Of a stretch of DNA of 64,000 bases, positions 9,096 through 63,500 are shown piece after piece. The translations under genes and the position numbers were made by a program. The DNA is taken from positions 85,314,001 through 85,378,000 of the forward strand of contig NC_086097.1 of assembly GCF_963921235.1 (NCBI RefSeq), read 5' to 3'. This stretch comes from Mobula hypostoma. Taxonomy: Eukaryota. The notes under the pieces are model-generated. The model ran no database searches and was not told the DNA's origin. It saw only the letters and a program-made list of their open reading frames with translations. The stretch's first letter is position 1; each line of letters begins with the position of its first letter.

Positions 9096-11169
9096 AGTAC
9101 AAGAGATCCAGATACATTATGAAGTGGCAATTCTGTACAAATCTGGAATCATGGAAGAAAACTCAGCAGCAGTGGCTTGGCTTGAAAGTTATCACCTCCT
9201 ATGAATCACAAAGTAAAACCAAGCGACACGTGGGACAACAAGGTTTCACTCCCACATGAGCTCAATTATCAAAACATGGAGACAAAACTCCCACCGCCCC
9301 CAACGACCCTGTGATTGAGGCCAATGTTAGAGCATCCCTTCAAGAGGGTGAACCCATAGAAAGCTTCCGGCCCAGACAGGGTTCCTGGCCACCTACTGAA
9401 TACCTGTGCTGATCAACTGGCTGGAGCATTCACTGAGATCACTAACCTCTCATCTTGGCAGTCTGAGGTACCCACTTGCTTCTAGCTGGCTTCAGTTATA
9501 CTGGTGCCAAGAAGAATGTGGTAACCTTCCTCTATTGTTATCATCCAGTAGCATTTATGTACACTATGAAGTGCTATGAGAGATTGGCAATGAAACATAT
9601 TAACTCCTGCCAGAGGGGTGACTTGGATCTGCTCCAGTTAGCTTACCATGACAACTGGTCAACAGCAGATGCTATGTCATCGGCTCTTCACTGAACATCT
9701 GAACAGTGAAGATGCATACATTAGGATGTCATTCATTGACTACAGCTCTGTATTCAATACTATCATCCCCTTGAAACTAGTCAATAAGCTCCAGAACCTA
9801 GGCCACCATGCCTCCTTCTGTAAATGGGTCATTGATTTCCTCACTTGCAGACCCCAGTCAGTTCCAATCGGCAACAACATAACCACCACAATCACCATCA
9901 GCACAGATGCAGTGCAAGGCTATGTGCTTAGCCCCCTGCTCTACTTGCTTAGCCTCATGGTCATAAGTGTAAAGCACAACTCCCATGCCATATTTAACTT
10001 TGTTAATGACAAACCTATCATTGGACGAATCAAATGTGTTGACAAATGAGTATATAGGAGAAAAGGAGCTGATTGTTGACTTCAGGAGGAGGAAACCAGA
10101 GGTCCATGAGCCAGTCTTATCATGAGACCAGAGGTGGGGAGGGTCAGCAACTTGAAATTCCTTGATGTTATACTTTCAGAAGACCTGTCCCGTCCAGCAC
10201 ATGAATCTCAAGGTTGTATATGGTATACATATTTTAATAATAAATATACTTTGAACTTAAGTGCCATTACAAAGAAAGCATGGCAGCACCTCTGCTTCCT
10301 TAGAAGTTTGCAAAGATTTGGCATGTCATTCAACAAACTTCTACAGAAGCCCAAACTTCTGTGGTGGAGAGCATACTGACTTGTTGCATCACAGCCTGGT
10401 ATGGAAACATCAATGCCCTTGAATGGAAAAGCCTACAAAAAGTAATGGATACAGCATAGTCTATCACAGGTAAAGCCCTCCCCACCATTGAGCACATTTG
10501 CAAGAAGTACTGTCATAGGAGAGCAGCATCCACCATGAGGACCCCAACATCCAGGACATGCTCTCTTCTCACTACTACCATCAGGAAGGAGGTACAGGAG
10601 CCTCAGGACCAACACCACAATGATCAGGAATAGTTATCACCCCTCAACCATCAGGCTCTTGAACCAGACGGGATAACTTCACTTGCCCCATCACTGAACT
10701 GTTCCATAATCTATCGACTCATTTTCAAGGACTCTTCATCCTATATTCCCTATATTTATTACTTATTTATTATTATTGTTTTGGTTTTTTTTTCTCTTTT
10801 TGTATTTGCACAGTTTTTGTTGTTTTTTGCAGATTGGGTGTTTGTCCTGTTGAGTGCTGTTTTTCATTGATTATATAGTGTTTCTTTGTATTTACTACGA
10901 ATACCCACAGGGAAATGTATCTCACAGTAGTACGGAGTGACATACATGTACTTTGATAATAAATTTATTTTGAACCTTGAACACATGTTCAATGTCCATC
11001 CCTATCTGTTTTGAATTCAATGGCTCTTTAGGCTATTTCAAAGACCAGTTAAGACTTCTCCACAGTGGTAGACTTGCAGCTATATCTAAGGTCAGTCCAG
11101 TTCCTTTCCTGCAGGACGTTAGTCTGTAAAAGAAGGAGGATTGCTAGAAGATCAATCTATGTCTTCCTC

Positions 11170-11615
11170 TTGTTCCAGGATGATGCCACCATCAGGGTGG
11201 AGGAGCAAAACCGTATATTCCTTCTGGGTACCCTCTAACCTGAGGGCATGAATATTGATTTCTCCTTCCAGTTTTAAAAAAATCCCTCCCCCTCTCTTCT
11301 TCTATTCCCCACTCTGGCCTCCTACTCACCTGCCTATCACCTCCCCTTTGGCCCTGCCGTCCTTCCATTTCTCAGATGGTCTACCCACCTCTCCTCTCAG
11401 ATTCCATCCTCTCCAGCCCTATGTCTTTCCTACCCACCTGGCTTCACCCACCTCCTTCTAGCTATCTTCCTTCCTCTCCCTAATCTTTTTATTCTGGCAT
11501 CTTCTCCCTTCCTTCCCAGTCCTGAAGAAAGGCCACAGATGCTGCCTGACCTGCAGAGTTTCTCCAGCATTTTGTTGTGCTGTTTTGTGTTTCCAGCAGC
11601 TGCAGAATTTGTGTT
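11170..11615 (+). mobile_element. Penelope-like 3' fragment (GIY-YIG C-terminus, pyrimidine tract, pLTR)
   Basis: DATIRVEEQ...GMNIDFS; GATGCTGCCTGACCTGC...TTCCAGCAGCTGCAG. Confidence 0.8.
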
Positions 11616-12200
11616 GGTGAAATAATTATTTAATATCTCCGCGATATCACCTGCCTCTGTAAGATAATGTTCACCATTGCCCCTACAAAGACGTGCCTTT
11701 CCTTGCATGATGGTTTTTACTGCACGATTTTTGATTTCTCTCCGGGGTAAGTTAATAATCAGATTGCAAGTTCTCAATTTCCCCTTGTTTGCAGAGCCCC
11801 TTCCCAATCAGATGGATTGTTCTTTCTCTGTTCTTGGATTTCTGCTGAAAATTAGTATTCTCATTTGCCTCTTTCTCCATGGCAACGTGTGCACAATGAT
11901 CTATCCTACTGAAATTTGGCACCATTCTGTCATTCAGAGAGCTGTAGCCTTAAATGTCCTTACTCACCCCTTTAGCAGAATTTGTCTACTTTTCTGCCAA
12001 ACCAAGTCCTCCTTGACAATCTGCATTATTCAGTGGCTGTTCTTCCTACTGATCTTTGATTCCAATTTATCAGGCAGATCCTTCTCAACTCTTTGTAATG
12101 AGACCTCCTCCAATGCAAATGTTCTGTATTTTATTTGGATTCCATTGTGAATGAAATTCTCCATTTCATGTGACATAGAACACTTCTTAGACTTGTTGAA
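11616..12200 (-). mobile_element. Ancient CR1-like fragment
   Basis: DIAEILNNYFT motif in ORF 11430-11807. Confidence 0.45.
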
Positions 12201-14257: not shown

Positions 14258-14293
14258 GGTCCTGACGAAGGGTCTCGGCCTGAAACGTCGACT
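14258..14293 (+). ncRNA. Minimal type I hammerhead ribozyme motif
   Basis: GGUC-CUGACGA-AGG(GUCUCGG)CCU-GAAA-C-GUC-GACU. Confidence 0.75.
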
Positions 14294-14389
14294 GCGCCTC
14301 TTCCTATAGATGCTGCTTGGCCTGCTGCGTTCACCAGCAACTTTGATGTGTGTTGCTTGAATTTCCAGCATCTGCAGAATTCCTGTTGT
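14262..14389 (+). mobile_element. Solo Penelope pLTR inserted in hAT, TSD TAGCGGTC
   Basis: TSD at 14254-14261 and 14390-14397; near-identical to the pLTRs in 48829-50157. Confidence 0.9.
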
Positions 14390-16053: not shown

Positions 16054-16182
16054 AGGAAAATGGTGGAGATCTGCAAGTCTGGATGGAATAAGTAGTTCCA
16101 AGAAATTTGAATTAATAATAATTAGCACAGGAGAAATTAATGGAATGAAAGTTGATAAATCCCCAGGACCTGTTAACCTATA

Positions 16183-17718: not shown

Positions 17719-17816
17719 TATCATGGACAAAATATGAAGGCACCATCACCAACTCCCACAGCCTGCAATGACCCTGTGATTTCTGTCTCAGAGGCCGACA
17801 CAAGAGAGCTTCCATT

Positions 17817-18309: not shown

Positions 18310-18339
18310 ACCTCGGAAAACGTCTAGCCCAGATGGTGT

Positions 18340-18501
18340 TAGATATGGCCCTTGTGGCTAAAGGTATTAGGGGGTATGGAGGGAAGGCTGGTGCAGGGTT
18401 CTGAGTTGGATGATCAGCCATGATCATACTGAATGGCGGTGCAGGCTCGAAGGGCCGAATGGCCTACTCCTGCACCTATTTTCTATGCTTTCTATGCTTC
18501 T
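18340..18501 (+). mobile_element. Short CR1 3' end, TSD ATGGTGT
   Basis: TSD at 18333-18339 and 18502-18508; same 3' UTR family. Confidence 0.9.
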
Positions 18502-19564
18502 ATGGTGTACCTGGCCAAGTACTAAATACCTGTACTGATCAAATGGCTGGAGTGTTCACTGTTATCTTTAAACTCTTGATTCAGCAGTCTGAGGTACCCA
18601 CCTGCTTCAAGCAGGCTTCAATTATATAGGTGCCCAAGAAGAACATGGAAACCTGCCTCAATGATGATCTTCTAGTGGGACTTACCTTCACTGTGATGAA
18701 GTGCTTCGAGAAGTTGGTGATGAAACTTATCAATCCCTGCCTGAGGAGCAACTTGGATCTGCTCCAGTTTGCCTATTGTCACAACAGGACAACAGTAGAT
18801 ACAATTTTATTGGCTCTTCGTTGTACCCTGGAACATCTGGATAGTGAAGATGCACACATCAGGATGCTCTTCATTGACTACAGCTCAGCATTCAACACTA
18901 TCATCCCCTCAAAACTAATCAATGAGCTCCAAGTCCTTGGCCTCAATACCTCCTTGTGCAGTGGATCCTTGATTTCCTCTCTTATAGACCCAAGTCAGTT
19001 TGGATTAGCAACAACATAACTCCACAATCACTATCAGCACAGGTGCACCACAAGGCTACGTGCACAGCTTCCTACTTTACTTACTTTATACTCATGACTC
19101 TGAGGTTAAACACAGCTCCAAAGCCATATTTAATTTTGCTGATGACACCACTGTCATTAGCTGAATTAACTATGTATTAAATCAGTATATAGTGGTGCTA
19201 CAACAACATCTCAATTAACAGCAGTAAGACCAAGAAACTGATGATTGAATACAAGAGGATGAAACCATAGGCTCATGAGCCAGTCATCAGGCTCTTGAAC
19301 CAGAGGTGATAACTTCACTCACCACAACACGGAACTGTTTCCACAAACTATGGACTAATGTTCAAGGACTTTTCTGCTCAAGTTCTCTATTTATTGCTTA
19401 GTTATTATTATTTTGTTTACTTTTTGTATTTGCACAGTTTGTTCTCTTTTGCACATTGGTTGATTGTCCATCTTGTATATCTTCATTGATTCTGTTGTGT
19501 GCCTTTATACTTACTGTGAATGCCTGCAAGAAAATGAATCTCAGAGTTGTATATGGTGACATAT

Positions 19565-20464: not shown

Positions 20465-23235
20465 TTATAGAGCATTACAGCACAGAAACAGGCCTTTCAG
20501 CCCATCTAGTCAATGTTGAACTATTATTCTGCCTCGTCCCATTGACCAGCACCTGGACCATTCCTCTCCCATCAATGTACTTACCCAAGTTTCTCTTAAA
20601 TGTTTAAAATCAAGCCCACATCCACCACTTCCACATGCAGATTGTTCAATGCCCTCACAACCCTCTAAGTGGAGATCTCCCTCAAGTTACCTTTAAATAT
20701 TTTACCTTTTACCCTTAACCTATGACCTCTAGTTCTAGTCTCACCTAACCTCAGTGGAATAAGCTTCTTTGCATTTATCCTTTCGATACCTCATAATTTT
20801 GCATATATCTATCAAACCTCCCCTCATTTTTCTATGCTCCAGATAATAAAGCCCTAACCTATTCAACCTTTACCTATAACTCAGATCCTCAAGTCCTACC
20901 AACGTTGTTGTAAATTTTCTCTCTACTCTTTCAATCTTATTGATATCTTTCCTGCAGGTAGGTGACCAGAACTAGACACGTATCTCCAAATTAGGCTTCA
21001 ACAACATCTGATACAACTTTACCATACCAATCCAACTCATATACTCAGTACTTTGATTTATGGTCAATGTGCCAAAAGCTCTCTGTACTTCCCTGTCTAC
21101 CTGTGACATCAATTTCAAGGAACTATGGATCTGTATTCCCAGATCCCTTTGTTCTACCACACTCCTTGGTGTCCTAACGTTCACTGTGTAAGTCCTACCC
21201 AGATCGGTCCTACCAGAGTGAAACACCTCACACTTGTCTGCATTAAATTCCATCTGCCATTTTCAGCCCATTTTTCTAGCTGGAAAAATTCCACCGCAAG
21301 CTTTGATGGTCTTCCTCGCTGTCAACTATGCCCCCTAGTCTTGGTGTCATCCACAAATTTGCTGATCCAGTTTACCACATTATCATCCAGATTTTGATAA
21401 TTACAAACAACAATGGATTCAGCACTGATCCCTGCGGCATTCCACTCGTCACAGACCTCTAGTAAGAGAAACTGGCGTCTATTGCAACTCTCTGACTTCT
21501 CCCACAAAGCCAATGCCAAATCCGTTTTACTACCTCATCCTGAATGCCAAAAAACTGAATCTTTTTGACCAGTCTCCCACGTGGGATGTGGTAATACATC
21601 TTGCTAAGAACCATGTGGACAACATTTCCTTCATTAATTTCCATGATAGCCTCCTCAAAAAACTCTTAAGTTTGGTCTAACACAACCTACCATGGACAAA
21701 GCCATTGTTGACTATTCCTAATAAGGCCCTGTCTATCCAAATACTTACATACTGATCCCTTAGAACACTTTCCAATAACTTACCCACGATTGATACTAGG
21801 CTCACCAGCCTGTAATTTCCTGGCTTATTCATAGAGCATTTCTTAAACACTAGAACAATATTAGCTGTCTACATTTCAGGCCAAGATCCTTAATCAGGAC
21901 TGGAAAGGAAAGGGAGAACTCAGAATAAGAAACTGGAGGAAGGGGAGGAAGAAGTACAAGGTGGCAGGTGATAGGTGAAACTGGGAGGGGGGAGGGGTGA
22001 AGTAAAGAGCTGGAAAGTTGATTGGTGAAAAAGATGGTGGGCTGGAGAAGGGAGAATTGGATAGGAGAGGACAGAAGGCCATGGAAGAAAGGGAAGGGGA
22101 GAAGCACCTGTGGCAGGTGATGGGCAGGTAAGGAGAGAGTGGGAAACAGGAATAGGGAATGGTGAAGGTGGGGAGGGGGAGGCAATTACTGGAAATTCAG
22201 GAAATCAATCTTCATGCCTTCAGGTTGGAGGTTACTCTGACAGAATATAAGGTGTTGCTCCTCCAACCTGAGCGTGGCCTCAACATGGCAGTAGAGGAGG
22301 CCATGGACTGACATGTCAGAATGGGAATGGGAAGTAGGGTCTGTTGGGATCATCTACTGTATCCACTGCTCCAGGTGTGCCCTCCTGTAGATTGGTGAGA
22401 CCTGACGTAGATTGGTAGACTGCTTTGCTGAGCACCTATGTTCTGTCTGCCAGAAAAAGCGGGATCTCCTGGAGGCCAGTCATTTGAATTCTACTTCCCG
22501 TTCCCATTCTGACATGGCCAACTCAGGTTCTGTGTAATATATTCTGCATTCTCTCTTATATTCTAGGTGGCTGCCAGCCTTATGGCATGAACTGATTTCT
22601 CTAATTGCCAGTAATTGTCCCCCCCCCCCACCATTCCCCATGCCTGTTTCCCTCTCTCACCTTATCTCCTTACCTCCTTCTGGTTCCTCTGCCATCTCCT
22701 ATCAGAATCCCCCTTCTCCAGGCCTTTATCTCTTTCACCAATCAACTTCCCAGCTCTTTACTTCGGCCCGAAACATCGACTGTTTCCTCTTTTCGATAGA
22801 TGCTGTCTGGCCTGCTGAGTTTGTCCAGCATTTTGAGTGTGTTGCTTTGGATTTCCAGCATCGGCAGATTTTCTCATGTTTGTGGAACAATATTAGCTAC
22901 TCTTCAATCTCCAGCACTTCATCCCTGGATAAGGATGTTTTACTACCTCTGCTAGGGCCCCTGCAATTTCTGGACTAGAATCCCATAAGGTCCAAGCGGA
23001 CACCCTGTCAGGCCCTCTGGATTTGTCTGTCCTAATTTGCCTCAAGACAGCAAGCACCTCCTCCTAAGTAATCTATACATGATCCTTGACCTTACTGCTG
23101 TTTTTTCTCAGTTCTATAGACTCTATGTCCATCTCCCAAGTAAATGCAGATCCAAAAAATCCATTCATGATCTTCCTCATTCTATTTTGTCCCCATGTAT
23201 ACTGTAGATGTACAGTTTTGTCCCTTGCTATCCTT
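20465..23235 (-). mobile_element. Old CR1 LINE interrupted by Penelope pair
   Basis: MEFNADKCEVFH, ISKFVDDTK, MNGFFGSAFT motifs on minus. Confidence 0.88.
21867..22884. mobile_element. Penelope-like element with inverted (tail-outward) arms, 14-bp TSD GAACAATATTAGCT
   Basis: TSD at 21853-21866 and 22885-22898; GIY-YIG remnant (IGET...AEHL) and pLTRs in both orientations. Confidence 0.88.
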
Positions 23236-33828: not shown

Positions 33829-34737
33829 TATAGAAACATAGAAACATAGAAAATAGGTGCAGGAGTAGGCCATTCGGCCCTTCGAGCCTGCACCGCCATT
33901 TATTATGATCATGGCTGATCATCCAACTCAGAACCCAGCCTTCCCTCCATACCCCCTGACCCCTGTAGCCACAGGGGCCATATCTAACTTCCTTTTAAAC
34001 ATAGCTAATGAACTGGCCTCAACAGTTTGCTGTGGCAGAGAATTCCACAGATTCACCACTCTCTGTGTGAAGAAGTTTTTCCTAACCTCGGTCCTAAAAG
34101 GCTTCCCCTCTATCCTCAAACTGTGACCCCTCGTTCTAGACCTCCCCAACATCGGGAACAATCTTCCCGCATCTAGCCTGTCCAATCCCTTTAGGATCTT
34201 ATACGTTTCAATCAGATCCCCCCTCAATCTTCTAAATTCCAACGAGTACAAGCCCAGTTCATCCAGTCTTTCTTCATATGAAAGACCTGCCATCCCAGGA
34301 ATCAATCTGGTGAACCTTCTTTGTACTCCCTCTATGGCAAAGATGTCTTTCCTCAGATTAGGGGACCAAAACTGCACACAATATTCCAGGTGTGGTCTCA
34401 CCAAGGCCTTGTACAACTGCAGTAGTACCTCCCTGCTCCTGTACTCGAATCCTCTCGCTATAAATGCCAGCATACCGTTCGCCTTTTTCACCGCCTGCTG
34501 TACCTGCATGCCCACTTTCAATGACTGGTGTATAATGACACCCAGGTCTCGTTGCACCTCCCCTTTTCCTAATCGGCCACCATTCAGATAATAATCTGTT
34601 TTCCTATTTTTGCCACCAAAGTGGATAACTTCACATTTATCCACATTAAATTGCATCTGCCATGAGTTTGCCCACTCAGCCAACCTATCCAAGTCACCCT
34701 GCATCCTCTTAGCATCCTCCTCACTGCTAACACTGCC
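33829..34737 (-). mobile_element. Young CR1 3' fragment, uninterrupted ORF2 C-terminus
   Basis: ORF 33928-34704 (258 aa) without stops, near-identical to 8064-8993. Confidence 0.96.
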
Positions 34738-34784: not shown

Positions 34785-35562
34785 TTTAAGATGAAAGTGG
34801 GGGGATGAAGGTTAAAAGGGATGTGCAAGACGAGTCTTCTTACGGAGGGAGTGGTAGGCAGCTGGAATACACTGCCAGTGAAAATGGTACAAGCCAATCC
34901 AATAGAAATGATTAGGAGGCAAACACATGAACAGACAAGGTATAGAGGGATATCGGCCATCTACAGGTAGATGGAATTAGTACTGCGCAAAGGTCTTCAG
35001 CACATGTATATACTTAGGGTGCTTAATACCTTTGCACAGTATTGTAGTAATTTTATGTATTGTACTGCACTGCTGCAAAAAAAAAACAAATTTCATGACA
35101 TATGTGAGTGATGATAAACCTGATTCTGACATAGGTCTCTATTGTGGTCTGAGAGTGGGAAGGGGAAGGGGAGAGGGGAATCATGGTTGGGAAAAGGGGA
35201 AGGAGCAGGAAGCACCAGAGAGACACTTTGTAATGACCAATAAACCTATTGTTTGGAATCCAGTGGCCTTGCCTGGTGTCTCAGAGCCGGGTGTGTCTGC
35301 ACCCACACCACCTCCACCCTGGTACTCCTTTTTTCTCACCTGCTCCACACTCCTCCTGTGGTGCTCCACCCTCGCCATTCCCAACATCCTTTGTTCCTGC
35401 CAGATTTACAAACTCACTCTCTGTTTCACACTTCAAAATACAGTACTGTGCAAAAGTCTTAGGCACCCTAGCTATATATAAGTAATTAAGACTCTTGCAC
35501 AGTACTGTAGGGTCAGCATGAGCATGATGGGCCAAAGGGCCAGTGCTGTACTCTCCTATGCT
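34785..35562 (+). mobile_element. Old CR1 3' end interrupted by composite MITE
   Basis: GTGGTAGGCAGCTGGAAT before; GATGGGCCAAAGGGCC...TGCTGTACTCTCCTATG after. Confidence 0.7.
34978..35507. mobile_element. Composite element bounded by two palindromic 67-bp Tc1-type MITEs
   Basis: CAGTACTGTGCAAAAGTCTTAGGCAC...CTTGCACAGTACTG-type units at 34978-35044 and 35441-35507; TA flanks clear at three of four ends. Confidence 0.8.
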
Positions 35563-44083: not shown

Positions 44084-46805
44084 GATATAATCAACTGAAC
44101 TAGAATAACAATGGCATACAAAGGCAAGTAATTTATCCTGCTTATAATTTATAAATCACTGAAAGTCACCATTGTGTCCAATTCCATCCACCACGTGTTA
44201 AGGCATTAAGGAATCAGAGAAGGAGATGTTTTACAGTGGAACCAGTGCCAGTAGAGTCATATTACAAGTAATAAGAACTGAATGAGTAACTGAAGCACTG
44301 AGAATTAAGTTAATTACAAATGAGGCATTTTTTTAAATCCAATGATCCAGGATACACTGCCAGAATGATTCATGGAAACGGATTCCTTCAAGAGGGGAAA
44401 AAAGGAGAAAAATGCATAAACCATAGGAAATGCACAGGAGGATGGAACTAAAAAGTTGCACTTTCAAAATTTTTGTGCAGGTCAAAATGTCACAATTCAA
44501 TGATTCTATAATTCCTTTAAAATGCTAAATATATGCTTTTGATTTTGAAAAACTCTGATGGCTGAATTCACCTTCGAGCTTAGAACAGGCTGTTCTATTA
44601 TCAGGCTAACATGTTCTCTACAAGACATGAGGCAGCACTAACTGCCTATTCTCATAACAGAACATTATATCCTAATCTCATTAGACCGGTACATAATCAC
44701 ATGCCACAGCTGGGAATTGCCAAAAACATAAAGTACTTGAAAGCACACACCATTACTCTTTCATTCAGGGCCTTCATCAGTTTCTTTTCTACAGCGTTGA
44801 CAACGTTGGCATTATTTTAGGCATCTGACCACATATATCATGAAGAAATATTTCTGTAAATGTGAAAATAAATTCTTCTCCTTGTTCTGTTGGTCAGGAT
44901 AAAGTAGGTCAAGCTACTCCAGATAAACTCTACCATTACGCAAAGCCTTTAACTTTTCATTTCCTTTCCTTCCTCAAGGTATTTGCATTGACTGATCTCA
45001 CTAAAGTGACATTTTGTACACATTGCATTTGTTTTCATGCCCGAAGGAATTAGTTAGTTTTTTAAACCAGCACTATTCAATGCATCTTATTTGAAAGTTT
45101 CTCTTTGAAAGAACACCTCTTCAAGCAATATATTCAAATTAACTTGACTAACAAGAAACTGCTCCTCTTGAAATGATCTGAAAGCTCTGTGTCCTTCTCC
45201 CCTTCCTTATGTTCCATTGAGGTCTTATGACCTGCGGGCCATCGATCCTGTTCTGAAATAACTTCTGGGCATTTGACTGGGAAACTGATGCAGAAAAAAA
45301 GCAGCTCAAAGCCAAAAAAAAGAGCGATGTTCCATGTAAAAAGGATAACATGTTGTCTAATCTCTTGGACAATTTCTACTGGAGCATTCATTGAGTTAAT
45401 CAGAGAACCATGCCTTCTTGCCTTCTGGCTCAAAACCAGTTCAAGTTCGAGCTTATTGTCATCTGATTGTGTACATATATTCAACCAACCAAAACAATAT
45501 TTCTCTGAACCACAGTGCACCCACAAATCATATAACACACACAGCACAGACAACAAAATATTACCACACATACAGTAAGTTAATATTCAAAGTGCATGCA
45601 TATAGTGCACAGCACTATACAAATCACTACACAGTAAACAGCTTACTGTCCTGGTGACGAAACCTCAGTGGTGGCAGAGTACTCATTAGTCACAAAGCCT
45701 GAGGAAAGAAACTGTTACTCAGTCTGGCAGTTCTAATCCTGATGCTTCCGTACCACCTTCCTGATGGTAGCGGGTCAAGGAGACTGTTGGATGAATGGGA
45801 TGGGTGGTCGGGATCCTCAGCAATGCTTTGGGCCCTTTGTATACAACACTCCTGGTAAATGTCACAAACTGGGGGGTGCGGGATACCCTGGCGATCCTCT
45901 CGGTGGTTTTTACTGTCGTCTGTAGGGTCTTGTGGTCTGATGCCTTGCAGCATTTTAGCACACAATGATATAGCCAGGCAGGACAATTTCGATGGTGGTC
46001 CTGCAGAAAATTGTTAGAATGGGAGCAAGGAACGTTGCAAGCCTCGGTCTCCCCAGGAAGTGCAAACACTGCTGTGCCTTATTGACGAATGTGGGGGTGT
46101 TGTGGTTCCAGGTTACATAGATTGTTCTTTATGTGCGTACCAAGGAACTCTGTGCTCTTCAGTCTGTCCACAGCAGAGCCATTGATGTGCAATGGAGAGT
46201 GGTTGACCTGTGCCTTTCTGAAGTCCATAATCATCTCTTTTGTCTTGTCCATATTGAGTCTCAGGTTGTTGTTCTCACACCATTTGACAAGGCTCTCTAT
46301 CTCCTTTCTGTATGCCGACTCATCATTGTTGCTGATGAGGCCAACCACTGTTGTGCAGTCGTGAGCCAGCAGTGTGAACCACAGGGAGCTGAGCTCACAG
46401 CCCCGGGGGAGGGCACCAGTGCTCAGCATGATGGAGCTTCAGATATTGCCGCCAACTTGGACTGACTGGGGTCCTTCTATCCTTCCATCAAGAAGTCCAA
46501 GATCCAGTTACAGAGATGGGCATTGAGTTCCAACAAAGACAGTTTACCCACCAGCCTCTAATTGTGTTAAATCCTGAGCTGAAATCGATGAACAACAACT
46601 TGGTGTAAGAGGCATGGTTTCCTACAAGGGACAGGACGGAAAAGAGATCTGAGGCTATGGCATCATCAGTACACTAGTTTAAGCAGTAGGCAAAGTGGAA
46701 AGGGTGCAATGCAGCTGGAAGGTGGGATTTTATACAATCCATCACCAGCTGCCGAAAGCACCATGATTGCTGAGGTCAATGTCACTAGACGGTAGTCGTT
46801 TAGAC

Positions 46806-47581
46806 CAGGGGTCCCCAACCTTTATTGTACCATGGACCAGTTTAATATTGACAATATTCTTGCGGACTGGCCGACCGGGGGGGTGTTCAAGTGGGGTTAA
46901 ACTCACCTCAACATGTCTTTTACAGTTAGGGTTGCCAACTTTCTCACTCCCAAATAAGGGACAAAAGTAGCAGTCAAATACAGGACACTTTACCCCAGGA
47001 AAGACTACCATGACCATGAAGCCTTGCGCGGTCACCTGTGGGCGCATGCGTGACTGCGCATGTGATTTGCGCATGCGCTTACATGCCGAATTTTTCCCCC
47101 CACAAGTTGGTTTTGCCTTCATCTTCCCGACTATACTGTACATACATTATTTCTATTTTATATAGGCTTGTGTATTTATCACATCTTTCCTGCTTTTACT
47201 ATATGTTAGTGTTATTTATTTTAGGTTTTATGTGTTATTTGGTATGATTTGTTAGGTTATTTTTTGGGTCTGGGAACTCTCAAAAATTTTTCCCACATAA
47301 ATTCATGGTAATTGCTTCTTCGCTTTACGCCACTTCTGCATGAACGGTTTCATAGGAATGCTCTACCTTAGCGGGGGAAATACGGGAGAAGGGCGGTCCT
47401 GTATGGGACAAACCAATTTCGCCCAATATACGGGATGTCCAGGCAAATACGGGACAGTTGGCAACCCTATGTTCAAGTTCAACAGTGCGTGACAGGGAAT
47501 GAGGAAAGGTGCAGCTGACTCATATCGTTTCCTTGCAGCCCGGTAGCACATGCTTTGCGGCCTGGTGGTTGGGTACCGCTG
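46806..47581. mobile_element. Non-autonomous hAT (Charlie/Buster), same ends as 14148-15493
   Basis: CAGGGGTCCCCAACC / GGTTGGGTACCGCTG; TSD GTTTAGAC / ATTTAGAC. Confidence 0.9.
46892..47469. mobile_element. Nested hAT-Blackjack-like MITE containing a Tigger-like end
   Basis: TAGGGTTGCCAACT 46927-46940 / AGTTGGCAACCCTA 47456-47469; TACGGGA subterminal repeats; TGTTCAAG at 46884-46891 and 47470-47477. Confidence 0.65.
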
Positions 47582-48926
47582 ATTTAGACCAGTTACCATG
47601 GCTCTCTTTGATACTGGAATGATGGTGACTGCCTTGAAGCCTGCAGGGACAGTGGACTGTTGCAAGTGGATATTAAAGATGCCCACAGCTGGGCCACACA
47701 ATCCCTCAGCACCTGACCAGATATGTTGTCCAGCCCTGCAGCTTTGCGTGGGTTTACCCTGCCTAAGATCCTCCTTACCTCAGCTGCGGCCAGAGAGGGC
47801 GAGCGCTCTGCTAGGGAAAGTCACACCATTCATCTCGTCAAATCGTGCATAGAAGGCATTCAACCTATCAGCAAGGGAGGCATTGCTTTTACTGATGTGC
47901 AGGATGGTGTTATGTTTCTATATCTTGCCACATAGAAGATATGTCCCTGGTGTCACAAAGGTGTCTGTGAATTTTCTGTGAGTGCTCTTGCTTTGCCTTC
48001 CTGATGGCACATGGAGTGTGTCTCTTGCTGACCTTAGAGTCATCCTGTCTCCTGATCTGAGGCAGCATTCCAATCCCTGAGCAGTGCATAAACCTCTGCT
48101 GTCAACCATGTTAGTCTGCATTGGAGTCCTCCCCTCCTTCCTCTATTCCGGCCATTCCAATGTACCTTTGTCCTCTTAAAGTTGCCGTGCCTGACTTGAG
48201 ATCACAATGTATGTTACTTAAAGGAAAATTACAGGTTGCGGTGATAGTAGTTCAGAAGAGGTATATCGAGAAGTTTTTTTTGATCAAGCTATGTATTACA
48301 TGAACGCTGGCTTCAGAAATGCACTGGTTCATTTAGTGGAGAACCATGACCAGAAGGGTAACACTTCAACCACTTTCAATGGTTGTCAGGTGGAGGACGT
48401 TGTCCAATCCAGCTAGCATCCTGCTGGTTGAGGTGATCCCACCTTCACCTTGGGGTCAGACCAGAGAAAATCGAAAGCCTGCAGTCCTGAGCAGGATTCC
48501 AACTCTCCATATCCTGATCAATCCCCAAAGCACTCAACCTCTGGATACGACCTCCATTGGAACAATCCCTGTACATTGAATATGGATGTCCTTCAGGATT
48601 TGCTCTCTTAACATCTCTGGAACCACTACTGTTTGGTCCCACTTCAGGCAATGTGCTCATCAACAGATGACATTCTCCTCATCACGTCTCTCACTCCAGT
48701 CTCTCATTCACTCCATCCTGAGAGGGTACAGGCGCATTCTGCAGCACAAAAATATCTATAGGACTGAGCCCAACAATCTCCTCAGCTATGACTGGAAGCA
48801 AGCTGAAACTGAACTGAATATACAAGTTAAACAACAGGAATTCTGCAGATGCTGGAAATTCAAGCAACACACATAAAAGTTGCTGGTGAACACAGCAGGC
48901 CAGGCAGCATCTCTAGGAAGAGGTGC

Positions 48927-48962
48927 AGTCGACGTTTCAGGCCAAGACCCTTCATCAGGACT
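48927..48962 (-). ncRNA. Minimal type I hammerhead ribozyme motif
   Basis: Minus: AGUC-CUGAUGA-AGG(GUCUUGG)CCU-GAAA-C-GUC-GACU. Confidence 0.8.
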
Positions 48963-50066
48963 AACTGAAGAAAGAGTGAGTAAGGGATTTGAAAGTTGGA
49001 GGGGGAGGGGGAGATCCAAAATGATAGAAGACAGGAGGGGGAGGGATGGAGCCAAGAGCTGGACAGGTGATTGGCAAAAGGGGATACGAGAGGATCATGG
49101 GATAGGAGGCCCGGGAAGAAAGACAAGGGGTGGGGGGGGGGAAACACAGAGGATGGGCAAGGGGTATATTCAGAGGGACAGAGGGAGAAAAAGGAAAATG
49201 AGAGAAAGAATGTGTGTATAAAAATAAGTAACAGATGGGGTACGAGGGGGAGGTGGGGCATCAGCGGAAGTTAGAGAAGTCGATGTTCATGCCATCAGGT
49301 TGGAGGCTACCCAGACGGAATGTAAGGTGTTGTTCCTCCAACCTGGGTGTGGCTTCATCTTTACAGTAGAGGAGGCCATGGATAGACATGTCAGAATGGG
49401 AATGGGATGTGGAATTAAAATGTGTGGCCACTGGGAGATCCTGGTTTCTCTGGAGGACAGAGCGTAGATGTTCAGCAAAGCGGTCTCCCAGTCTGTGTCG
49501 GGTCTCGCCAATATATAAAAGTCCCAGTCTGCATCCGCTTTGACCGCTTTGCTGAACATCTACGCTCTGTCTGCCAGAGAAAGCAGGATCTCCCAGTGGC
49601 CACACATTTTAATTCCACATCCCATTCCCATTCTGACATGTCTATCCACGGCCTCCTCTACTGTAAAGATGAACCCGCACTCAGGTTGGAGGAACAACAC
49701 CTTATATTCCGTCTGGGTAGCCTCCAACCTGATGGCATGAACATCGACTTCTCTAACTTCCGCTAATGCCCCACCTCCCCCTCGTACCCCATCTGTTACT
49801 TATTTTTATACACACATTCTTTCTCTCACTCTCCTTTTTCTCCCTCTGTCCCTCTGAATATACCCCTTGCCCATCCTCTGGGTCCCCCCCCCCCACCTCC
49901 TTGTCTTTCTTCCCGGACCTCCTGTTCCATGATCCTCTCGTATCCCTTTTGCCTATCACCTGTCCAGCTCTTGGCTCCATCCCTCCCCCTCCTGTCTTCT
50001 CCTATCATTTTGGATCTCCCCCTCCCCCTCCAACTTTCAAATCCCTTACTCACTCTTCCTTCAGTT

Positions 50067-50102
50067 AGTCCTGACGAAGGGTCTCGGCCTGAAACGTCGA
50101 CT
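50067..50102 (+). ncRNA. Minimal type I hammerhead ribozyme motif
   Basis: AGUC-CUGACGA-AGG(GUCUCGG)CCU-GAAA-C-GUC-GACU; predicted cleavage after C50098. Confidence 0.8.
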
Positions 50103-50243
50103 GCGCCTCTTCCTATAGATGCTGCCTGGCCTGCTGCGTTCACCAGCAACTTTTATGTGAATATACAAGTTCTCTGTTTTAAATTCATTGTCGCTTCCTT
50201 GTTGTGTGGTTGGATCATTGTATATGAGATATAGTATTCCAGA

Positions 50244-54328: not shown

Positions 54329-54568
54329 AGCAACACACATAAAAGTTGCTGGTGAACGCAGCAGGCCAGGCAGCATCTCTAGGAAGAGGTGCAGTCAATG
54401 TTTCAGGCCGAGACCCTTCATCAGGACTAACTGAAGGAAGAGAGAGAAGGGTCTCGGCCTGAAACATCGACTGCACCTCTTCCTAGAGATGCTGCCTGGC
54501 CTACTGCATTCATCAGCAACTTTTATGTGTGTTGCTTGAATTTCCAGCATCTGCAGAATTCCTGTTGT
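54329..54568. mobile_element. 240-bp palindromic Penelope mini-element, 12-bp TSD CTGCCATATTTA
   Basis: Two inverted pLTR pieces; TSD at 54317-54328 and 54569-54580. Confidence 0.92.
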
Positions 54569-56411: not shown

Positions 56412-56770
56412 AGTGCAAGAAAGTCTGCAGATACTGGAAATCCAAAGCAACACACACAAAATGCTGGAAGAACCCAGCCGGTCAGGCATTGTCTATGGAA
56501 ATGAATAAACTGTTGACATTTTGGGCTGAGACTCTTCTTCAGGACAGGGAAGGAGGACACCACAATAAAAAGGTGGGGGGAGGGGAAGGAGGATAACTAG
56601 AAGGTGATAGGTGAAGCGACGGTGGGTAGGAAAGATACGGGGCTGGAGAGGAAGTCATTTGATAGCAGAGGAGAGTGGACCATGAGAGAAAGGGAAGGAA
56701 GAGGTGGAGGGTAGGTGAGAAGAGGTAAGAGGCCAGAGTGGGGAAGAGGGGAGGGGAGGGGGAAGGATAT
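56412..56770 (-). mobile_element. Penelope pLTR and purine tract (older subfamily)
   Basis: TCTGCAGATACTGGAAATCCAAAGCAACACACACAAAATGCTGG; degenerate hammerhead region. Confidence 0.8.
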
Positions 56771-57244
56771 TTTTTCATTCATTCTTCCCTTACTTTTAAT
56801 TCAAATCTTTTGCTCATGTTTTATTCAACATAAAATTTGAGGATCATAAATGTATTGTAAATTCAGCAGTGACATTTCAAAAATTTTAAAGTTATTTGCT
56901 ATTTATATGCTGACAGCTGCTTATGATTTTGCTCTTAGCAGCTGAAATGCCCTGGCATCTGAGATGGATTAGCCTCTAATCAATTACTTCAGTAACTGTA
57001 TCACTGTAGCCCTGGAAGTAGCTGTATACCCCACTAGGAAACGAAAGGCTGACGTTAGCTGGAAATAATCATCGCCACAGCAGCAGAATTAAGCTGACTA
57101 TAAACCACAGAAAGTCACAGATGTACAATGTAGCTGCCTCTCCAAGCCTCAGTTTTGTTAGGGAAAGAATTTTGCAAATTAAACTACTTTGGTTTCGGTT
57201 TTGGCATGCAAGTAATTAATTGTTTGAGTCAACGCTCAAATAGT

Positions 57245-57509: not shown

Positions 57510-60500
57510 GTTATAGAACAGTACAGCTCAGGAACAGGCCCTGTACTAAACCAATTAAATTAGTAATCAAATGGCCAGTTCAACTAAATGCTTCTGCCTA
57601 CACTATGTCCACATCCCTCCATTTTCCTCAAATTCATGTGCTTATCTAAACGTCACTTAGAAGTAATGTATCTGCCACTACCACCATATCAGGTAGTGAA
57701 TTCCAGGCATCTATCACTCTCTGAGTAAAAACTTACCCCTCACATCCCCTTTGAACCTACCCACCTCACCTTTAATCATACCCTCGGTAGACATTTCTAC
57801 CCTGTGAAGCAGCTACGTATATTAGAATTCCCCTCAGCCTCTATCACTCCAAAGTGAACAACCCAAGTTTGTTCAGCCTCTCCTGATAGCACGTGCCCTC
57901 TAAACCAGGCAGTATCCTGGTAAACCTCTTCTGCTCCCTCTCCAAAGTCTCAACGTCCTTCCTATAGTGGTGTGACTGGAACTGTATGCAATATTCCATA
58001 TGTGGACTAACCAGAGTTTTATAAAGTTGCAACAATACCTCCTGACTTTTGAACTCAATGCCTCAACTAATAAAAGCAGGCATTCTATAAGCTTTCCTAA
58101 CCACCTTATCGACCTGTGTAATCACTTTCAAGGAGCTATGAACTTGGATCCCAAGATCTCTCTGCTCAACAACACTGTTAAGGACCTTATCCTTAACAGT
58201 GTACTGTATCCTTGCATTTGACCTATTGAGCTGCAACATCTCTCATTTATCTGCATTAAACTCTATCTGCCATTTCTCTGCCCACATCTGCAACTGATCT
58301 ATATCACGCTGTATCCTTTGCCAGTGTTCTCCACTATCTACAACCCACCAATCTTTGTATCATCCGCAAACATACTATCCCACTGATCTATATTTTCATC
58401 CAGGTCATTTATATACATCGCAATCGGCAGAGGTCCTAGCACAGATCCCTGTGGAACACTACTAATTGCAGACCTCCAGTTCGAATAAATCCCTTGAACC
58501 ACCAGCGTCTATCTTCCATGCACAAGCCAGTTCTGAATCCAAATAGCCAATTTGCTGCAGACCTTATGCACCATAATCTTCTGGATTTGCCTCCCATGAG
58601 GGCCTTTGTCAAACTAAAATCCACAAAGACAAAAGCAACTGCCCTACTGTTATCAATCTCTCTCATCACCTTGTCAATCACCACACAGCCATGCTGGCTC
58701 TCCCTAATTAGGCCATGGGTTTCCAAATGCTCATATATCCTATCCCTAAGAATTAATTTTCTCCAGCAATTCCCCTACAACTGACATGAGACTCACCAGT
58801 CTATAGTTCCCAGGATTTTCCCTTGTTCCCTTTATAAATTGATGTACAACATTGACCTCTCAACAGTCCTCCGGGACCTCGCCTGTACCTAGAAAGGACA
58901 TGAAGATAACGGTCAAGCCCCATCAAACTCATCTCTTGACCTCTTCAATAACCTAGGGTGAATCCCATCAAGTCCTGGGGACTTATCCACCTTAATACAC
59001 ACTAGGAAGATGAACATTTCCCTGTCCTTGACCTCCAAATGCCCTAACATATTTATACACTCAGCACTGATCTCCTGATTCTCCACGTCCTTTTCCTTGG
59101 TAAATACTGAAACAAAGTACTCATTAAGAACCTCACACATTCTCTGCATCCAAGCAAACGTTCCCCTCTTTATCCTTGAGTGGTCCTACCCTCTCTCTAG
59201 TTATCCTCTTGCTCTTGATGTTTGCATAAAATGCCTTGGGATTCATCGTAATCCTACTTGCTGAGGACTTTCCATAGCCCCTCCTAGCTTTCCTAAATCC
59301 CTTCTTTAATTCTTTTCTGGTTTCTTTGTACTCTCCATGTGCTTCACTTGATCTGAACTTCCAAAACTTAACATACTTTTCCTTTTTCTTCTTGACTAAA
59401 TTCATCACCTCTCTGGACATCCAAGGTTCTCTTATCTTTCTATCCCTGGTCTTCCTTCTAACAGGAACATACCTTTCCTGTACTCTGCGCAATTGATCTT
59501 TAAACACCCTCCATATGTCTGATGTGGATTTGCCAGAAAAAGAAGTGTTCCCAATGAACTCTTCTTAGTTCTTGCTAAATGCCCTTGTAATTTGCCCTAC
59601 GCCAACTTAAGTCTCTCCCACAAGGACCATACCTATCCTTATCTATAGCTATTCTAAAAGTTAAGGAGTTGTGGTCACTATTCCCTAACTGTTCACCCAC
59701 TGAAAGGTCAGTTAGCTGGCCAGGCTCATTACCTTACACCTGGTCCAGTACAGCCCCTCCTCTAGTTGGACCGTCCATATAATGATTTTATAAACCTTTC
59801 TTGGATACACTTAACAAATTCTGTCCCACTTAAAACCCATGCACTAAGACAGTCGCAGTTTATATTAGGGAATCATTTCCTCACTGTCCTGGTGGCTATG
59901 GGGGGTGGGGTGTGGGTGACGCATCTGTAGTACAATTCCACTGGCGTGATTGCACCCTTCCTATTCCTGGGTTCTACCCAAATGGACTCAGTGTCTGTCC
60001 CTCCATTGTGTCCCCCCTGAATGCAGCTGTGATATTGCCCGAGTAGTAGTACAACTCCCAGAGACTCTCTTCAAGCACTAGATGGAGTAAGTCGCACTTG
60101 ACTTTGCTCCGTTCTTTTTTTCATTTATTTACCACCTGTTTAGTATTCACTTTGAAGTGTTTACATTATTGTTGTATGCTTGAATTTTGATTGTTAATTC
60201 TTGGAAATGACAAGGGAAAAAGGCACTAACCGAGAGCGAGGAAGCCGGCAATGGAAATGGAGGAGGAGGAGGAGGCGACCCTAAACAGTCTAAACAGCCT
60301 AAACAGGCACAACTGACTTTGGAAGTTACATCCAAGCTTTTGGATGACAAACTTGATAAATTTGATAAAAGATTTTCTAATCTCGAGATAAAGTTAAATA
60401 ATATTGAAGATCACATTGGAGCAATTAAACACGAGAATGAAAAGCAACAACAATTAATTTCGGATCTTGATGAAAATGGCACACAAAGAGACTGCAGATT

Positions 60501-63500
60501 GAGCTCGTTGGAGAAGAAAGTAATCTCGACCACTCAAACACTGGAACAATATAAAGCCAAGATCATTGACCTGGAAAATCGCAGTCGCAGACAGAATCTA
60601 CGGATTATAGGACTTCGCGAGGACGTTGAAAGTGGAAATCTCACTAAGTTTTTTGCTTAATTTTTAATGGAGGTATTCAGTACTGAAGTGTTTTCTAATC
60701 CCCCTATACTAGACTGCGCTCATCACTCATTAAGGGTTAAACCTCTGAAAGATTTAAAACTCAGAGCCGTTGTTCTACATTTCCACTATGTGCATACTGA
60801 GGAGCATTTAATTTGAGTTGCATGTCGGAAAGGAGTGATTGAGCATGGAGATCTCAAATTTCGTTTGGTGGAAGATTTTAGTCCAGAGTTGTTACAAGAG
60901 AGGTCTTTTTTTAAGTTGGTGATGTCGGAATGACACCAAAGGAAATTATACCCTGCGTTGTTATATCCTGTGCATTTAAGGGTTGTTTTGCCAGATAAAT
61001 CACGTAAATGGTTTAAATCAGAGATGGAGGCACGTCAATTTCTTGAAGATCTTAAGGTAAAAGGAGTCTCTATTTTATAGACTCCTCAATTTCATTTGTT
61101 CATTTTGAAACAATTTCAGACCCGAATGGTAGATTTTTGTTAATTATTGGCTTACTTTATAACCAGAAAGTTGTTTTGGTTAATATTTATGCACCAAATA
61201 CTGACTATCCTGAAATTTTAAGCATTTATTTGCATCTTTTCCTGATTTAAATGAATATAAGTTGATAATGGGTGGAGACTAATTGTTGCTTGAATCCTTT
61301 GATGGATAGGTCTGCCTAATCAAATATCTCCAAACAAATCTGCTATTTTTATTAACACTGTTAAATCCTTTATTATTTGATATAACTTTGGCAATTGCTT
61401 TTCGTATATATTTGGATATATTTGGAATTACTTGTGGGAAGGAGATGCATAAGGTATCATGGTATGCAGGAGACTTGTTACTATGTACCTCTAACCCAGA
61501 GAAATCCATCCCGGCAGTTTTAACACTACTAGCTCAGTTTAGTAGTTTTTCTGGTTATAAACTAAATCTTAATAAGAGTGAACTTTTTTCCATTAAATAT
61601 GCAAGTTCCTATTTATAGATAGTTATCATTTGAATTAATTACTGATTATTTCACTTATTTGGGTGTCAAAATTACTAAAAAATATAAAGATCTATTTAAA
61701 GTTAACTTTCTACCTTTAATTGACCACGTTAAACAATTGTTTACTAAATGGTCTCCACTGTCCTTATCATTGATTGGTCAAATTAATGTTATTAAAGTGA
61801 CTGTTTTACCTAAGTTTCTGTATTTATTTCAAATGGTACCAATTTTTATCTCTAAATCCTTTTTTGATATTATTGATTCTAAAATTTCTTCATATATATG
61901 GCAGAATAAAAATCCTACATTGAGTAAGAAATATCTACAGAAATCAAAAAAGGATGGTGGTTTAGCATTGCCGAATTTTAAGTTTTATTATTGGGCAATT
62001 AATATCTGATATTTAATGTTTTGGACGCAAGATTGGGATGAAATTCATTGTCCACGATGGGTGAACCTTAAGGGTGAGTCTGTGCAGGGGTTCTCATTGG
62101 CTTCTATTTTAGGAGCTTCACTCCCCTTTGCATTAACCAAACTGAATAAACAAATAATTAATCCAATAATTAAACATACAATACGAATATGGTTTCAATT
62201 TCATAAATTTTTTGGATTGAACGAATCTAGTCCTATTATATCTAATTTTTTCTTTCAACCTTCTAGAATTGATCAAGATTTTTCCTTATGGAAAACGAGG
62301 GGAATAGCATGCTTTCATGATTTATCCATGGATAATTGTTCATGTCGTTTGAACAATTATCTAACAAATATAAGTTGCCTAGTTCACATTTTTTCCGATA
62401 TCTGCAGATTAGAAGTTTTTTGAATGGTATTTTACCTAATTTTCCAACATTTCATCCAACCAATATTACAGGAAAAAATTTAGGTTTAAATCCCTATCAG
62501 AAGTGCTTAATAGCAGTTTTGTATGATTTAATTAAGAAAATACATCTCAGTACATCTGATAAAATAAAAAATGAATGGGAAAGAGAACTTCAGGTATCTT
62601 TACTTATAGAGAAATGGGAGAAACTTTTTCAACTAGTTAATACTTCCTCAATGTGTGCTAGTTTTACACTGATACAATTTAAAATAGTCTATAGGGCTCA
62701 TATGTCTAAGGATAAATTAGCTCATTTTTACCGACATATAAATCCTGTGTGAGACAGATGTAACTCTGAGGTGGCCTCTCTGACACATATGTTTTGGTCT
62801 TGCCCTCTTTTAGATAAATATTGGAAAGATATTTTTGATATTATTTCAACAGTTTTGCATATTAATTTAAAACCTCACCCTATTACTGCAATTTTTGGAT
62901 TATCAGTGACAGATGTTGGTCATTTATCCGTTTCAGCTTGCCGTTTGTTACACTAACAGCTAAAAGATCCATCTTACTTAAATGGAAAGATTCTGATCCT
63001 CCTACTACTTTTCAATGGTTTTCTCAAACTATATTATGTTTAAACCTGGAAAAAATTAGGTGTGGTATGGTTGATTCTTCAGTTAAATTTGAAGAAACCT
63101 GGAGACCATTTATTCAACATTTTCATATGATGTAAGCTGTCCCTTTCAGAACCCTGTTTTTTAATAATCTTTTGTTTTTCTATGGAGGAGTGGAGTTAAT
63201 GAAAAAAAATGTTCTTATCTGAGGGAATAGGACATCCCAGTCTTTGTTTTTTTAAAGTTTAGGGGGTTCTTTAAAAAACTCTTTTTTCATGTTCAATTAC
63301 TTAGAGATTGGGAGGCTTGAATTATATATTTTACTCGAATTATGTTTGTTCATGTTAACCATTATCAACGTTACACTGATCTCTTTGTATCATTAGTATT
63401 GTTAGGTATATTAATCTGAAATTTAATAAAAAGATTGAAAAAGGAAAAGTAGTGCAACTCTCTGCCCCTCTTTCACGTCCTTTTCTATCTTTTCTAAAAC

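What the first reader, a model, noticed from the sequence alone, without database searches (positions are those of the whole stretch)
48927..50102. Intact minimal hammerhead ribozymes in Penelope pseudo-LTRs
Seen: AGUC-CUGAYGA-AGG-loop-CCU-GAAA-C-GUC-GACU at 50067-50102 (+), 48927-48962 (-) and 14258-14293 (+). Decayed versions lie at 54393-54428, about 21867-21901 and about 56512-56545 (-). Known: Penelope-like elements carry minimal type I hammerheads whose palindromic stem III (here ACGU) forms only in dimers. Inference: this genome holds a large population of potentially self-cleaving RNA motifs that could cut any transcript crossing them. This is a known class, probably unannotated here.
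Basis: partly seen in the sequence, partly recalled or inferred. Interest (0 to 1): 0.7.

Follow-up and report, generated by a model that had tools for sequence, protein, structure and literature searches.

The report
Hammerhead relics in inverted Penelope insertion
The flagged motifs are real copies of the small hammerhead ribozyme that Penelope-like jumping genes are already known to carry; here two of them sit back to back in one cut-down insertion, an arrangement in which they are unlikely to cut passing RNA, so the catch is correct but ordinary.

Summary
A structural descriptor finds exactly the three named motifs (chance mean 0.005), and the three decayed copies exist. The flagged interval is one 1,329-bp insertion (48829-50157) with a 14-bp target-site duplication. 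It is made of two 5'-truncated, head-to-head 3' ends of a Neptune-type Penelope-like element, one carrying a ~41-nt tail. Each arm holds the end of a GIY-YIG endonuclease gene, a ~300-nt pyrimidine-rich spacer and the hammerhead. The closest named proteins are from rays (Mobula 90%, Hypanus 64-84%).

The inference that these motifs 'could cut any transcript crossing them' is not supported. The two motifs face opposite ways, so they cannot dimerise in cis. A read-through RNA folds into a ~620-bp hairpin that buries 34-36 of 36 motif bases. None of nine element ends in the window starts at the cut site. Cleavage itself was not testable.

The class was described in 2014, and the scan has noted this family before in this genome (44 notes fit) and in two other shark windows. 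One lead remains: the two arms may have been copied from two different RNA templates (weak, post hoc).

The parts
48815..48828 (.). Left copy of the 14-bp target-site duplication (11 of 14 bases A/T)
   Evidence: Identical to 50158-50171
48829..49527 (-). Left arm: 5'-truncated 3' end of a Neptune-type Penelope-like element, with the full tail
   Evidence: 95.3% identical over 620 columns to the right arm; 603 contigs of run X1 break off at 48829, marking the family's 3' end
48829..48869 (-). About 41-nt tail present on the left arm only
   Evidence: The match between the arms stops at 48870/50159; an optional 30-40 bp tail is described for these elements
48927..48962 (-). Intact minimal type I hammerhead motif (two CpG transitions, at N7 and in loop II); predicted cut after 48931
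   Evidence: Descriptor hit; alignment
49264..49527 (-). Last 88 codons of the GIY-YIG endonuclease, from the YIG motif to the stop
   Evidence: 90% identical to a Mobula hypostoma RT-endonuclease protein and 64-84% to seven Hypanus sabinus proteins; Pfam GIY-YIG only at E 0.27 for the fragment
49486..49541 (.). 56-nt head-to-head junction between the paired arms; holds the left arm's 5' end and short rearranged pieces of the element
   Evidence: Inverted repeat I1 leaves 56 nt between the arms; sequence
49542..50157 (+). Right arm: 5'-truncated 3' end of the same element, without the tail; endonuclease end at about 49542-49763
50067..50102 (+). Intact minimal type I hammerhead motif; predicted cut after C50098
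   Evidence: Descriptor hit
50158..50171 (.). Right copy of the 14-bp target-site duplication
14258..14389 (+). Separate 128-bp insertion (14262-14389, 8-bp duplication) truncated at stem I; the motif at 14258-14293 is intact, its first bases supplied by the target
54329..54568 (.). Second small head-to-head pair (12-bp duplication); the minus motif 54393-54428 has lost the ACGU palindrome, the plus motif starts inside the core; tail on the plus arm only
21867..22884 (.). Older-subfamily head-to-head pair (14-bp duplication); the minus motif 21867-21901 has G8 changed, the plus motif has lost its 5' core
56418..56774 (-). Older-subfamily single arm; the motif 56512-56545 has G12 changed
11152..11620 (+). 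Older-subfamily single arm; only the 5' half of the motif is left (from 11518)

Best explanation
The interval is one dead retrotransposition product of a very abundant Neptune-type Penelope-like element, probably in a ray genome. Shown by sequence: one target duplication, two truncated inverted 3' ends, a tail on one end only, and no reverse-transcriptase DNA. Inferred mechanism: the element's RT-endonuclease protein cut both strands of an A/T-rich target 14 bp apart. It primed cDNA from each nick on element RNA, once at the distal start (with tail) and once about 41 nt further in (no tail). Both cDNAs stopped after 600-700 nt and were joined head to head. The hammerhead is the standard one of the element's terminal repeat. 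It is maintained in the source elements, where tandem copies or the element's protein can activate it, and it was copied along from uncut RNA. In these dispersed copies it is a passenger that decays mainly through CpG changes. A transcript across this locus would form a long double-stranded hairpin rather than be cut.
For: Duplications of 14, 12, 14 and 8 bp flank four insertions, three of them inverted pairs. [quoted passage not shown] The fold model's top matches are telomerase RT (weak, E 4e-3) and I-TevI (rmsd 2.2). Inverted 5'-truncated copies with a one-sided tail and a short duplication are described for these elements. The anole element cleaves and extends both strands, starts RT at two sites that define the tail, and uses uncut RNA. 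No end in the window starts at the cut site (0 of 9). Contigs stop matching at both edges of the motif (860 at 48962, 1,153 at 48926 in run X1), and older copies match 27-29 of 36 motif bases against 12-14 of 36 upstream, so the motif is kept across subfamilies. Read-through RNA pairs 34 and 36 of 36 motif bases with the other arm.
Against: No cleavage or RNA-end data could be obtained; all runs were contigs. Folding energies omit the hammerhead's non-canonical core pairs and any protein help. Base-level conservation of the core over the rest of the motif is 2/67 against 23/159 (p=0.01), but falls to 1/66 against 10/146 (p=0.18) once CpG transitions are removed. The ~90 nt downstream are about as conserved as the motif (21-27 of 36 in three old copies). 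The clade was assigned by motifs, not by a tree with named references. Self-priming on an antisense template is a published alternative for head-to-head pairs.
Confidence: 0.85

Rival explanations
1. One reading: dispersed intact motifs are active in host transcripts, pairing in trans (or helped by the element's protein or a chaperone) and cutting any RNA that crosses them.
For: Three motifs are intact with a palindromic ACGU. The family is abundant in contigs of runs guessed to be RNA (14,558 and 10,205 laid). One RefSeq isoform model of Mobula hypostoma includes the motif's translation. The anole ribozyme cleaves when protein is added.
Against: Opposite orientation and a hairpin at this locus; the nearest same-strand intact pair is 36 kb apart. 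The double-hammerhead dimer scores -9.5 kcal/mol against -28.3 for the best dimer fold. With native upstream bases, stems I and II have pairing probability <=0.01. Published: no monomer cleavage and low dimer cleavage, no RNA-seq ends at the anole site, 1 of 9 Xenopus dimer elements cleaved.
Confidence: 0.1
2. The two arms were copied from two different element RNAs held in one dimeric particle, with the hammerhead's palindrome as the RNA-RNA contact.
For: At 50116/48913 (not a CpG) the right arm matches the independent insertion at 14.3 kb and older copies, while the left arm matches both 54-kb arms. At 49072 the right arm carries a letter with 48% family depth. Rough post hoc chances are 1.7% and 10%. 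The anole protein is predicted to be a dimer and extends both strands.
Against: The arms agree at 22 of the 39 listed family-variant sites, including a rare letter at 49131. Of the 17 differences, 10 are letters rare in the family on the left arm, 4 are CpG sites and 2 lie beside a G run. 65 variant rows were hidden. Gene conversion among very many copies, or two units of one tandem transcript, explains the same pattern. Nothing here links the hammerhead to pairing.
Confidence: 0.12
3. The inverted pair arose by snap-back self-priming on one template, or by two independent insertions or later recombination.
For: Self-priming on an antisense template was proposed for head-to-head Penelope repeats. 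The junction holds short rearranged pieces. The arms differ at 29 of 620 columns.
Against: One duplication encloses both arms, and three of the four duplication-flanked insertions in the window show the same plan, which argues against independent events. Self-priming is not excluded, but does not by itself explain the one-sided tail as neatly as two RT start sites.
Confidence: 0.15

Closest known systems
Minimal hammerheads (min-HHR) of metazoan Penelope-like elements, including fish Xena, Poseidon and Neptune (Cervera and De la Pena 2014, PMC4209133; parts 1-2 of 4 read)
   Same: Type I, 4-bp helix I, no real helix III, palindromic 15.2/16.2, extra base after A9, located in the terminal repeat. 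Mostly single truncated copies; pairs on opposite strands 100-700 bp apart are described there too.
   Different: Helix II is short here (4 bp, against 7-8 bp in the Schistosoma motifs). The young subfamily has U at 11.1 (G-U or A-U in place of the usual G10.1-C11.1); two older copies have C. The host group is not named in the parts read.
Neptune-clade endonuclease-bearing Penelope-like elements (Craig et al. 2021, PMC8557442; passages read)
   Same: RT, then CX2-5CxxC linker, then C-terminal GIY-YIG with CCHH; 5' truncation, an inverted copy at the 5' end, and a 30-40 bp tail at one end.
   Different: No RT-coding DNA is in this window. Nematis shares the linker and was not excluded by a tree.
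PAc, Poseidon element of Anolis carolinensis (Frangieh et al. 2024, PMC11167929; parts 1-2 of 4 and passages read)
   Same: Hammerhead near the 3' end of genomic copies, A/T-rich targets, two ends that define a tail, uncut RNA used as template.
   Different: A different clade (no linker zinc finger). In PAc the reading frame starts in stem II; no such start could be shown here, and none of 41 full-length-like relatives begins with the motif's peptide.
Non-LTR retrozymes (Li, Clavereau, Pollet, bioRxiv 10.64898/2026.07.22.740005; parts 1-3 of 5 read)
   Same: Type I hammerheads derived from Penelope terminal repeats; reported in one chondrichthyan genome.
   Different: Retrozymes are head-to-tail tandem units. 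No such array is in this window; these are endonuclease-bearing truncated ends in inverted or single arrangement.

Membership tests
Minimal type I hammerhead | Core CUGANGA, GAAA and UH in order with stems I and II | tested here: met
   3 descriptor hits against 0.005 expected
Minimal type I hammerhead | Palindromic positions 15.1-16.1 in place of helix III | tested here: met
   ACGU in the three intact copies
Minimal type I hammerhead | Unpaired base after A9 and a G10.1-C11.1 pair | tested here: inconclusive
   The bulged-A register is favoured, but 11.1 is U in the five young copies and in one old copy, and C in two old copies
Minimal type I hammerhead | Core better conserved than its surroundings across copies | tested here: inconclusive
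   Met against the upstream flank; not significant at base level without CpG changes (p=0.18); the downstream flank is similarly conserved
Minimal type I hammerhead | Self-cleavage as a dimer or with protein help | not testable with these tools
   No raw RNA reads were offered
Rfam hammerhead families | Match to a covariance model | tested here: not met
   No hammerhead hit at E<=1; the missing helix III is the likely reason (inference)
Endonuclease-bearing Penelope-like element | C-terminal GIY-YIG endonuclease with CCHH | tested here: met
   Fragment from YIG to the stop with both His; Cys pair in 80-90% identical relatives; I-TevI match by profile and by fold
Endonuclease-bearing Penelope-like element | Telomerase-like RT in the same frame | tested here: inconclusive
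   Absent from the window; present in relatives; telomerase is the top fold match but weak (E 4e-3)
Endonuclease-bearing Penelope-like element | Truncated inverted copy, one-sided 30-40 bp tail, target duplication | tested here: met
   About 41-nt tail and 14-bp duplication
Neptune clade | CX2-5CxxC linker between RT and endonuclease | tested here: met
   In the ray proteins and 40 of 41 full-length-like relatives; the region itself is cut off in the window
Neptune clade | RT phylogeny with named Neptune, Nematis and Poseidon references | not tested
   No named reference sequences were at hand
Non-LTR retrozyme | Head-to-tail tandem units each with a hammerhead | tested here: not met
   11 tandem rows, none on the family; the pairs are inverted

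The most novel reading that the evidence does not exclude
The minimal hammerhead's main job is to pair two element RNAs through its palindrome inside a dimeric RT-endonuclease particle, and each arm of an inverted insertion is copied from a different RNA. The very many young inverted pairs in ray genomes would then be a readable record of two-template retrotransposition. The hint here is one or two sites where the arms of a single insertion carry different family alleles.
Probability: 0.1. Interest if true: 0.65.

Novelty: new member of a known kind. Interest (0 to 1): 0.2.

Why it matters
As it stands, little: it adds a ray family to a class described in 2014, and this scan has already noted it many times. 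Its use is as material. The family is young and abundant, and its inverted insertions carry target duplications, so the open questions on Penelope elements (what the hammerhead is for, how inverted ends and tails arise, whether one or two RNAs are copied) could be tested by statistics on genomic copies. Such loci also place ~600-bp perfect hairpins in the way of host transcription, which is a more likely effect on host RNA than self-cleavage.

Tried and rejected
Whole-genome counts: no genome is held.

More DNA copies from public collections: exact pattern scans found 0 in viral and 0 in metagenome contigs; protein-based scans confirmed none of 402 and 67 candidate stretches.

RNA ends at the cut site: no RNA holder listed on record, and all runs are contigs; table 6 is empty and says nothing either way. 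Higher relative depth downstream of the motif in the runs guessed to be RNA was not used: the tool says depth cannot rank parts, and the endonuclease end is raised just as much.

A conserved RNA structure in the 90 nt after the motif: not supported (0 of 18 pairs with two-sided changes; z from -1.39 to 0.26 in four copies).

The mir-3926 and mir-8186 Rfam hits are inverted repeats scoring far below threshold (48 against 82 bits, 27 against 80). The core-pattern hit at 44759-44780 and four others fail the descriptor.

A splice acceptor ending in stem I, as in Drosophila virilis: a pyrimidine run plus YAG precedes the core in 5 of 6 copies with upstream context, and three joints across the ~305-nt spacer appear only in the runs guessed to be RNA. 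But their middle letters are unknown, they miss the predicted junction by 1-3 bases on the motif side and 1-9 on the endonuclease side, similar joints occur in DNA runs, and the young copies lack GT at the endonuclease stop. It is left as a lead.

The motif's open frame as the start of the element's protein: one hit among 5 candidates, a host isoform model, and no full-length relative starts with it; an earlier search found nothing.

A single-sequence PDB search found nothing. Lunse et al. 2016/2017 is not held; it is known here only through a review's sentence and reference list.

Full report
Observation. A descriptor that demands stem I, the CUGANGA box, stem II, GAAA, a paired 15.2/16.2 and UH finds three hits in the 64 kb, at 14258-14293 (+), 48927-48962 (-) and 50067-50102 (+). 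Two hundred dinucleotide shuffles give a mean of 0.005 and never three. Small corrections: the 14258 copy begins with G, supplied by the target site; stem II is better read as a bulged A followed by GGGU/GCCU (-6.0 against -4.6 kcal/mol); three further partial copies lie at 54446, about 22763 and 11518. Rfam does not recognise the motif at E<=1.

What the interval is. The two motifs are the outer parts of a single insertion, 48829-50157, enclosed by a 14-bp duplication at 48815-48828 and 50158-50171. It consists of two head-to-head arms, 95.3% identical over 620 columns, with 56 nt between the paired parts. The left arm runs about 41 nt further at its 3' end than the right. Each arm encodes the end of a GIY-YIG endonuclease, then about 300 nt of pyrimidine-rich spacer, the hammerhead, and 55-98 nt more. 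The same plan recurs at 54329-54568 (12-bp duplication) and 21867-22884 (14-bp); 14262-14389 is a single short end (8-bp). Six family loci cover 3,541 bp, 5.5% of the window, and none holds RT-coding DNA.

Which element. The 88-residue fragment hit 8 proteins among 192 candidates: one from Mobula hypostoma (90%) and seven from Hypanus sabinus (64-84%). [quoted passage not shown] A search with one of them found 20,530 relatives at E<=0.001. Of the 148 new proteins listed, 41 are 750-1,000 residues long; 40 of these have the CX2-5CxxC linker, 40 a YxDD and 33 the cysteine pair. Four of five scanned have both RVT_1 and GIY-YIG, the fifth GIY-YIG only. A model (mean pLDDT 93.5) matches telomerase RT first, weakly (E 4e-3), and I-TevI at rmsd 2.2. 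By the motif criteria in Craig et al. (passages) this is Neptune-type; no tree was built. That the host is a ray is inferred from the named hits.

Abundance and conservation. Laid on the left arm, one DNA run gave 190,029 contigs and summed depths of mostly 2-12 million against 8.4 on the unique flank. The tool warns that this is not a copy number, so I take it only as 'very many'. Loose ends pile up at 48829 (603 contigs, A-rich flanks), the family's 3' end, and at both edges of the motif (860 at 48962, 1,153 at 48926), where other subfamilies or truncated copies stop matching. Two older copies match 27 and 29 of 36 motif bases but only 12 and 14 of 36 upstream. The motif is therefore kept across subfamilies. 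The finer test is weaker: core against the rest of the motif in seven other window copies is 2/67 against 23/159 (p=0.01), but 13 of the 23 are CpG transitions, and without these it is 1/66 against 10/146 (p=0.18). The downstream stretch is about as conserved as the motif. Of the 105 variant rows, 65 were hidden; the two shown inside the motif are at N7 and in loop II.

Would these copies cut RNA? Probably not, on structure and on published behaviour; it could not be measured. Only 3 of 9 motif-bearing ends are intact. The two in the flagged interval lie on opposite strands, so one transcript carries only one sense copy. A read-through RNA folds at about -1,250 kcal/mol, with 34 or 36 of the 36 motif bases paired to the other arm. 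Alone, the motif prefers a rod in which GAYG of the core pairs with CGUC around the cut site (-10.0). With its native upstream bases it prefers a fold in which stems I and II have probability <=0.01. The double-hammerhead dimer scores -9.5 against -28.3 for the best dimer. These energies omit core contacts and protein help. Cervera and De la Pena saw no monomer and low dimer cleavage (parts 1-2 of 4 read). The anole element's hammerhead cleaves only with protein, is not needed for insertion, and shows no RNA-seq ends at the site (parts 1-2 of 4). One of nine Xenopus dimer elements cleaved (preprint, part 3 of 5). In this window, both flagged arms span the cut site and none of nine ends starts at it, so the copied RNA was uncut.

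Mechanism. The most likely origin is target-primed reverse transcription from both nicks of a 14-bp staggered cut, one cDNA starting at the distal site (tail) and one about 41 nt further in, both truncated and joined head to head. The structure is shown; the steps are inferred from the anole protein, which cleaves and extends both strands and starts at two sites. Self-priming on an antisense template is the published rival (passages). The arms have since diverged by 23 substitutions in 614 columns (K2P 0.039); no date is given, as no rate was measured.

The two-template lead. At 50116/48913 the right arm shares a non-CpG letter with the independent 14.3-kb insertion and older copies, and the left arm shares the other letter with both 54-kb arms. 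At 49072 the right arm has a letter with 48% family depth. Rough post hoc chances are 1.7% and 10%. Against this, the arms agree at 22 of 39 listed family-variant sites, including a rare one, and 14 of the 17 differences look like later mutation. Gene conversion would give the same pattern. I rate it about 0.1.

Novelty. The class, its location, the opposite-strand pairs and thousands of copies in vertebrate genomes were described in 2014. A 2026 preprint reports hammerhead-bearing tandem repeats in one chondrichthyan (its supplements were not seen and may name the species and families). Four searches for cartilaginous-fish cases listed 2, 20 of 22, 0 and 8 papers, none on this family by title or abstract start; one whale-shark passage merely lists Penelope. 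One supplementary file of the 2014 paper could not be searched, and subscription papers and Repbase are outside the library. The scan's own index has 44 notes fitting 'Penelope hammerhead' in this genome (8 shown) and similar notes in other genomes, two of them sharks. These are unchecked notes, not independent support. Two reviews were read as passages only. Verdict: a correct catch of a known kind, with an overstated functional inference; interest 0.2.

Noticed in passing
window 21867-21901 (-): This arm's 3' end falls 3 bases after the hammerhead cut position, directly at the target duplication, some 55-95 nt short of the usual family ends.
   Followed up: partly
window 14259-14262, 54446, 54451: Three of nine 5' ends lie within about 25 nt of the hammerhead core (at stem I, inside the core, and 24 nt upstream of stem I), in line with an earlier scan note on truncation near the motif.
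   Followed up: partly
window 50035-50068 (+) and equivalents at 48961 (-), 54427 (-), 21900 (-), 11519 (+): A pyrimidine run plus YAG ends in the 5' strand of stem I in young and old copies, like the Drosophila virilis intron end; the same upstream bases pair with the core in the predicted fold. Splicing there is not shown.
   Followed up: partly
P0010 (XP_062913069.1), P0008 (XP_059814227.1), P0004, P0007: RefSeq isoform models of Mobula hypostoma and Hypanus sabinus include pieces of this element: the motif's frame in a STARD3NL isoform, and the endonuclease end in an ATP synthase c-like isoform. Exon capture or annotation noise.
   Followed up: no
window 34979-35046 and 35439-35506: Two 68-bp, 79% matching inverted ends, each itself a hairpin, around 400 bp of other sequence; looks like an old miniature DNA transposon (label from recall). 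Source of the mir-8186 hits.
   Followed up: partly
window 54388-54477: The small inverted Penelope pair scores 48 bits against the mir-3926 model (threshold 82); such hairpins could be mis-annotated as microRNA precursors.
   Followed up: partly
window 7250-9095 (+), 15606-16054, 17815-18504, 33830-34737: A young LINE family with RVT_1 (E 3e-33) in 90-98% identical copies; CR1-type by recall. 17815-18504 is itself an inverted pair of 3' ends.
   Followed up: no
window 14143-14477: The 128-bp Penelope end sits inside another repeat whose flanks match 46801-46883 and 46989-47061.
   Followed up: no
window 60211-62752 (+): A coiled-coil frame followed by broken frames that look like an L1/Tx1-type element (label from recall).
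   Followed up: no
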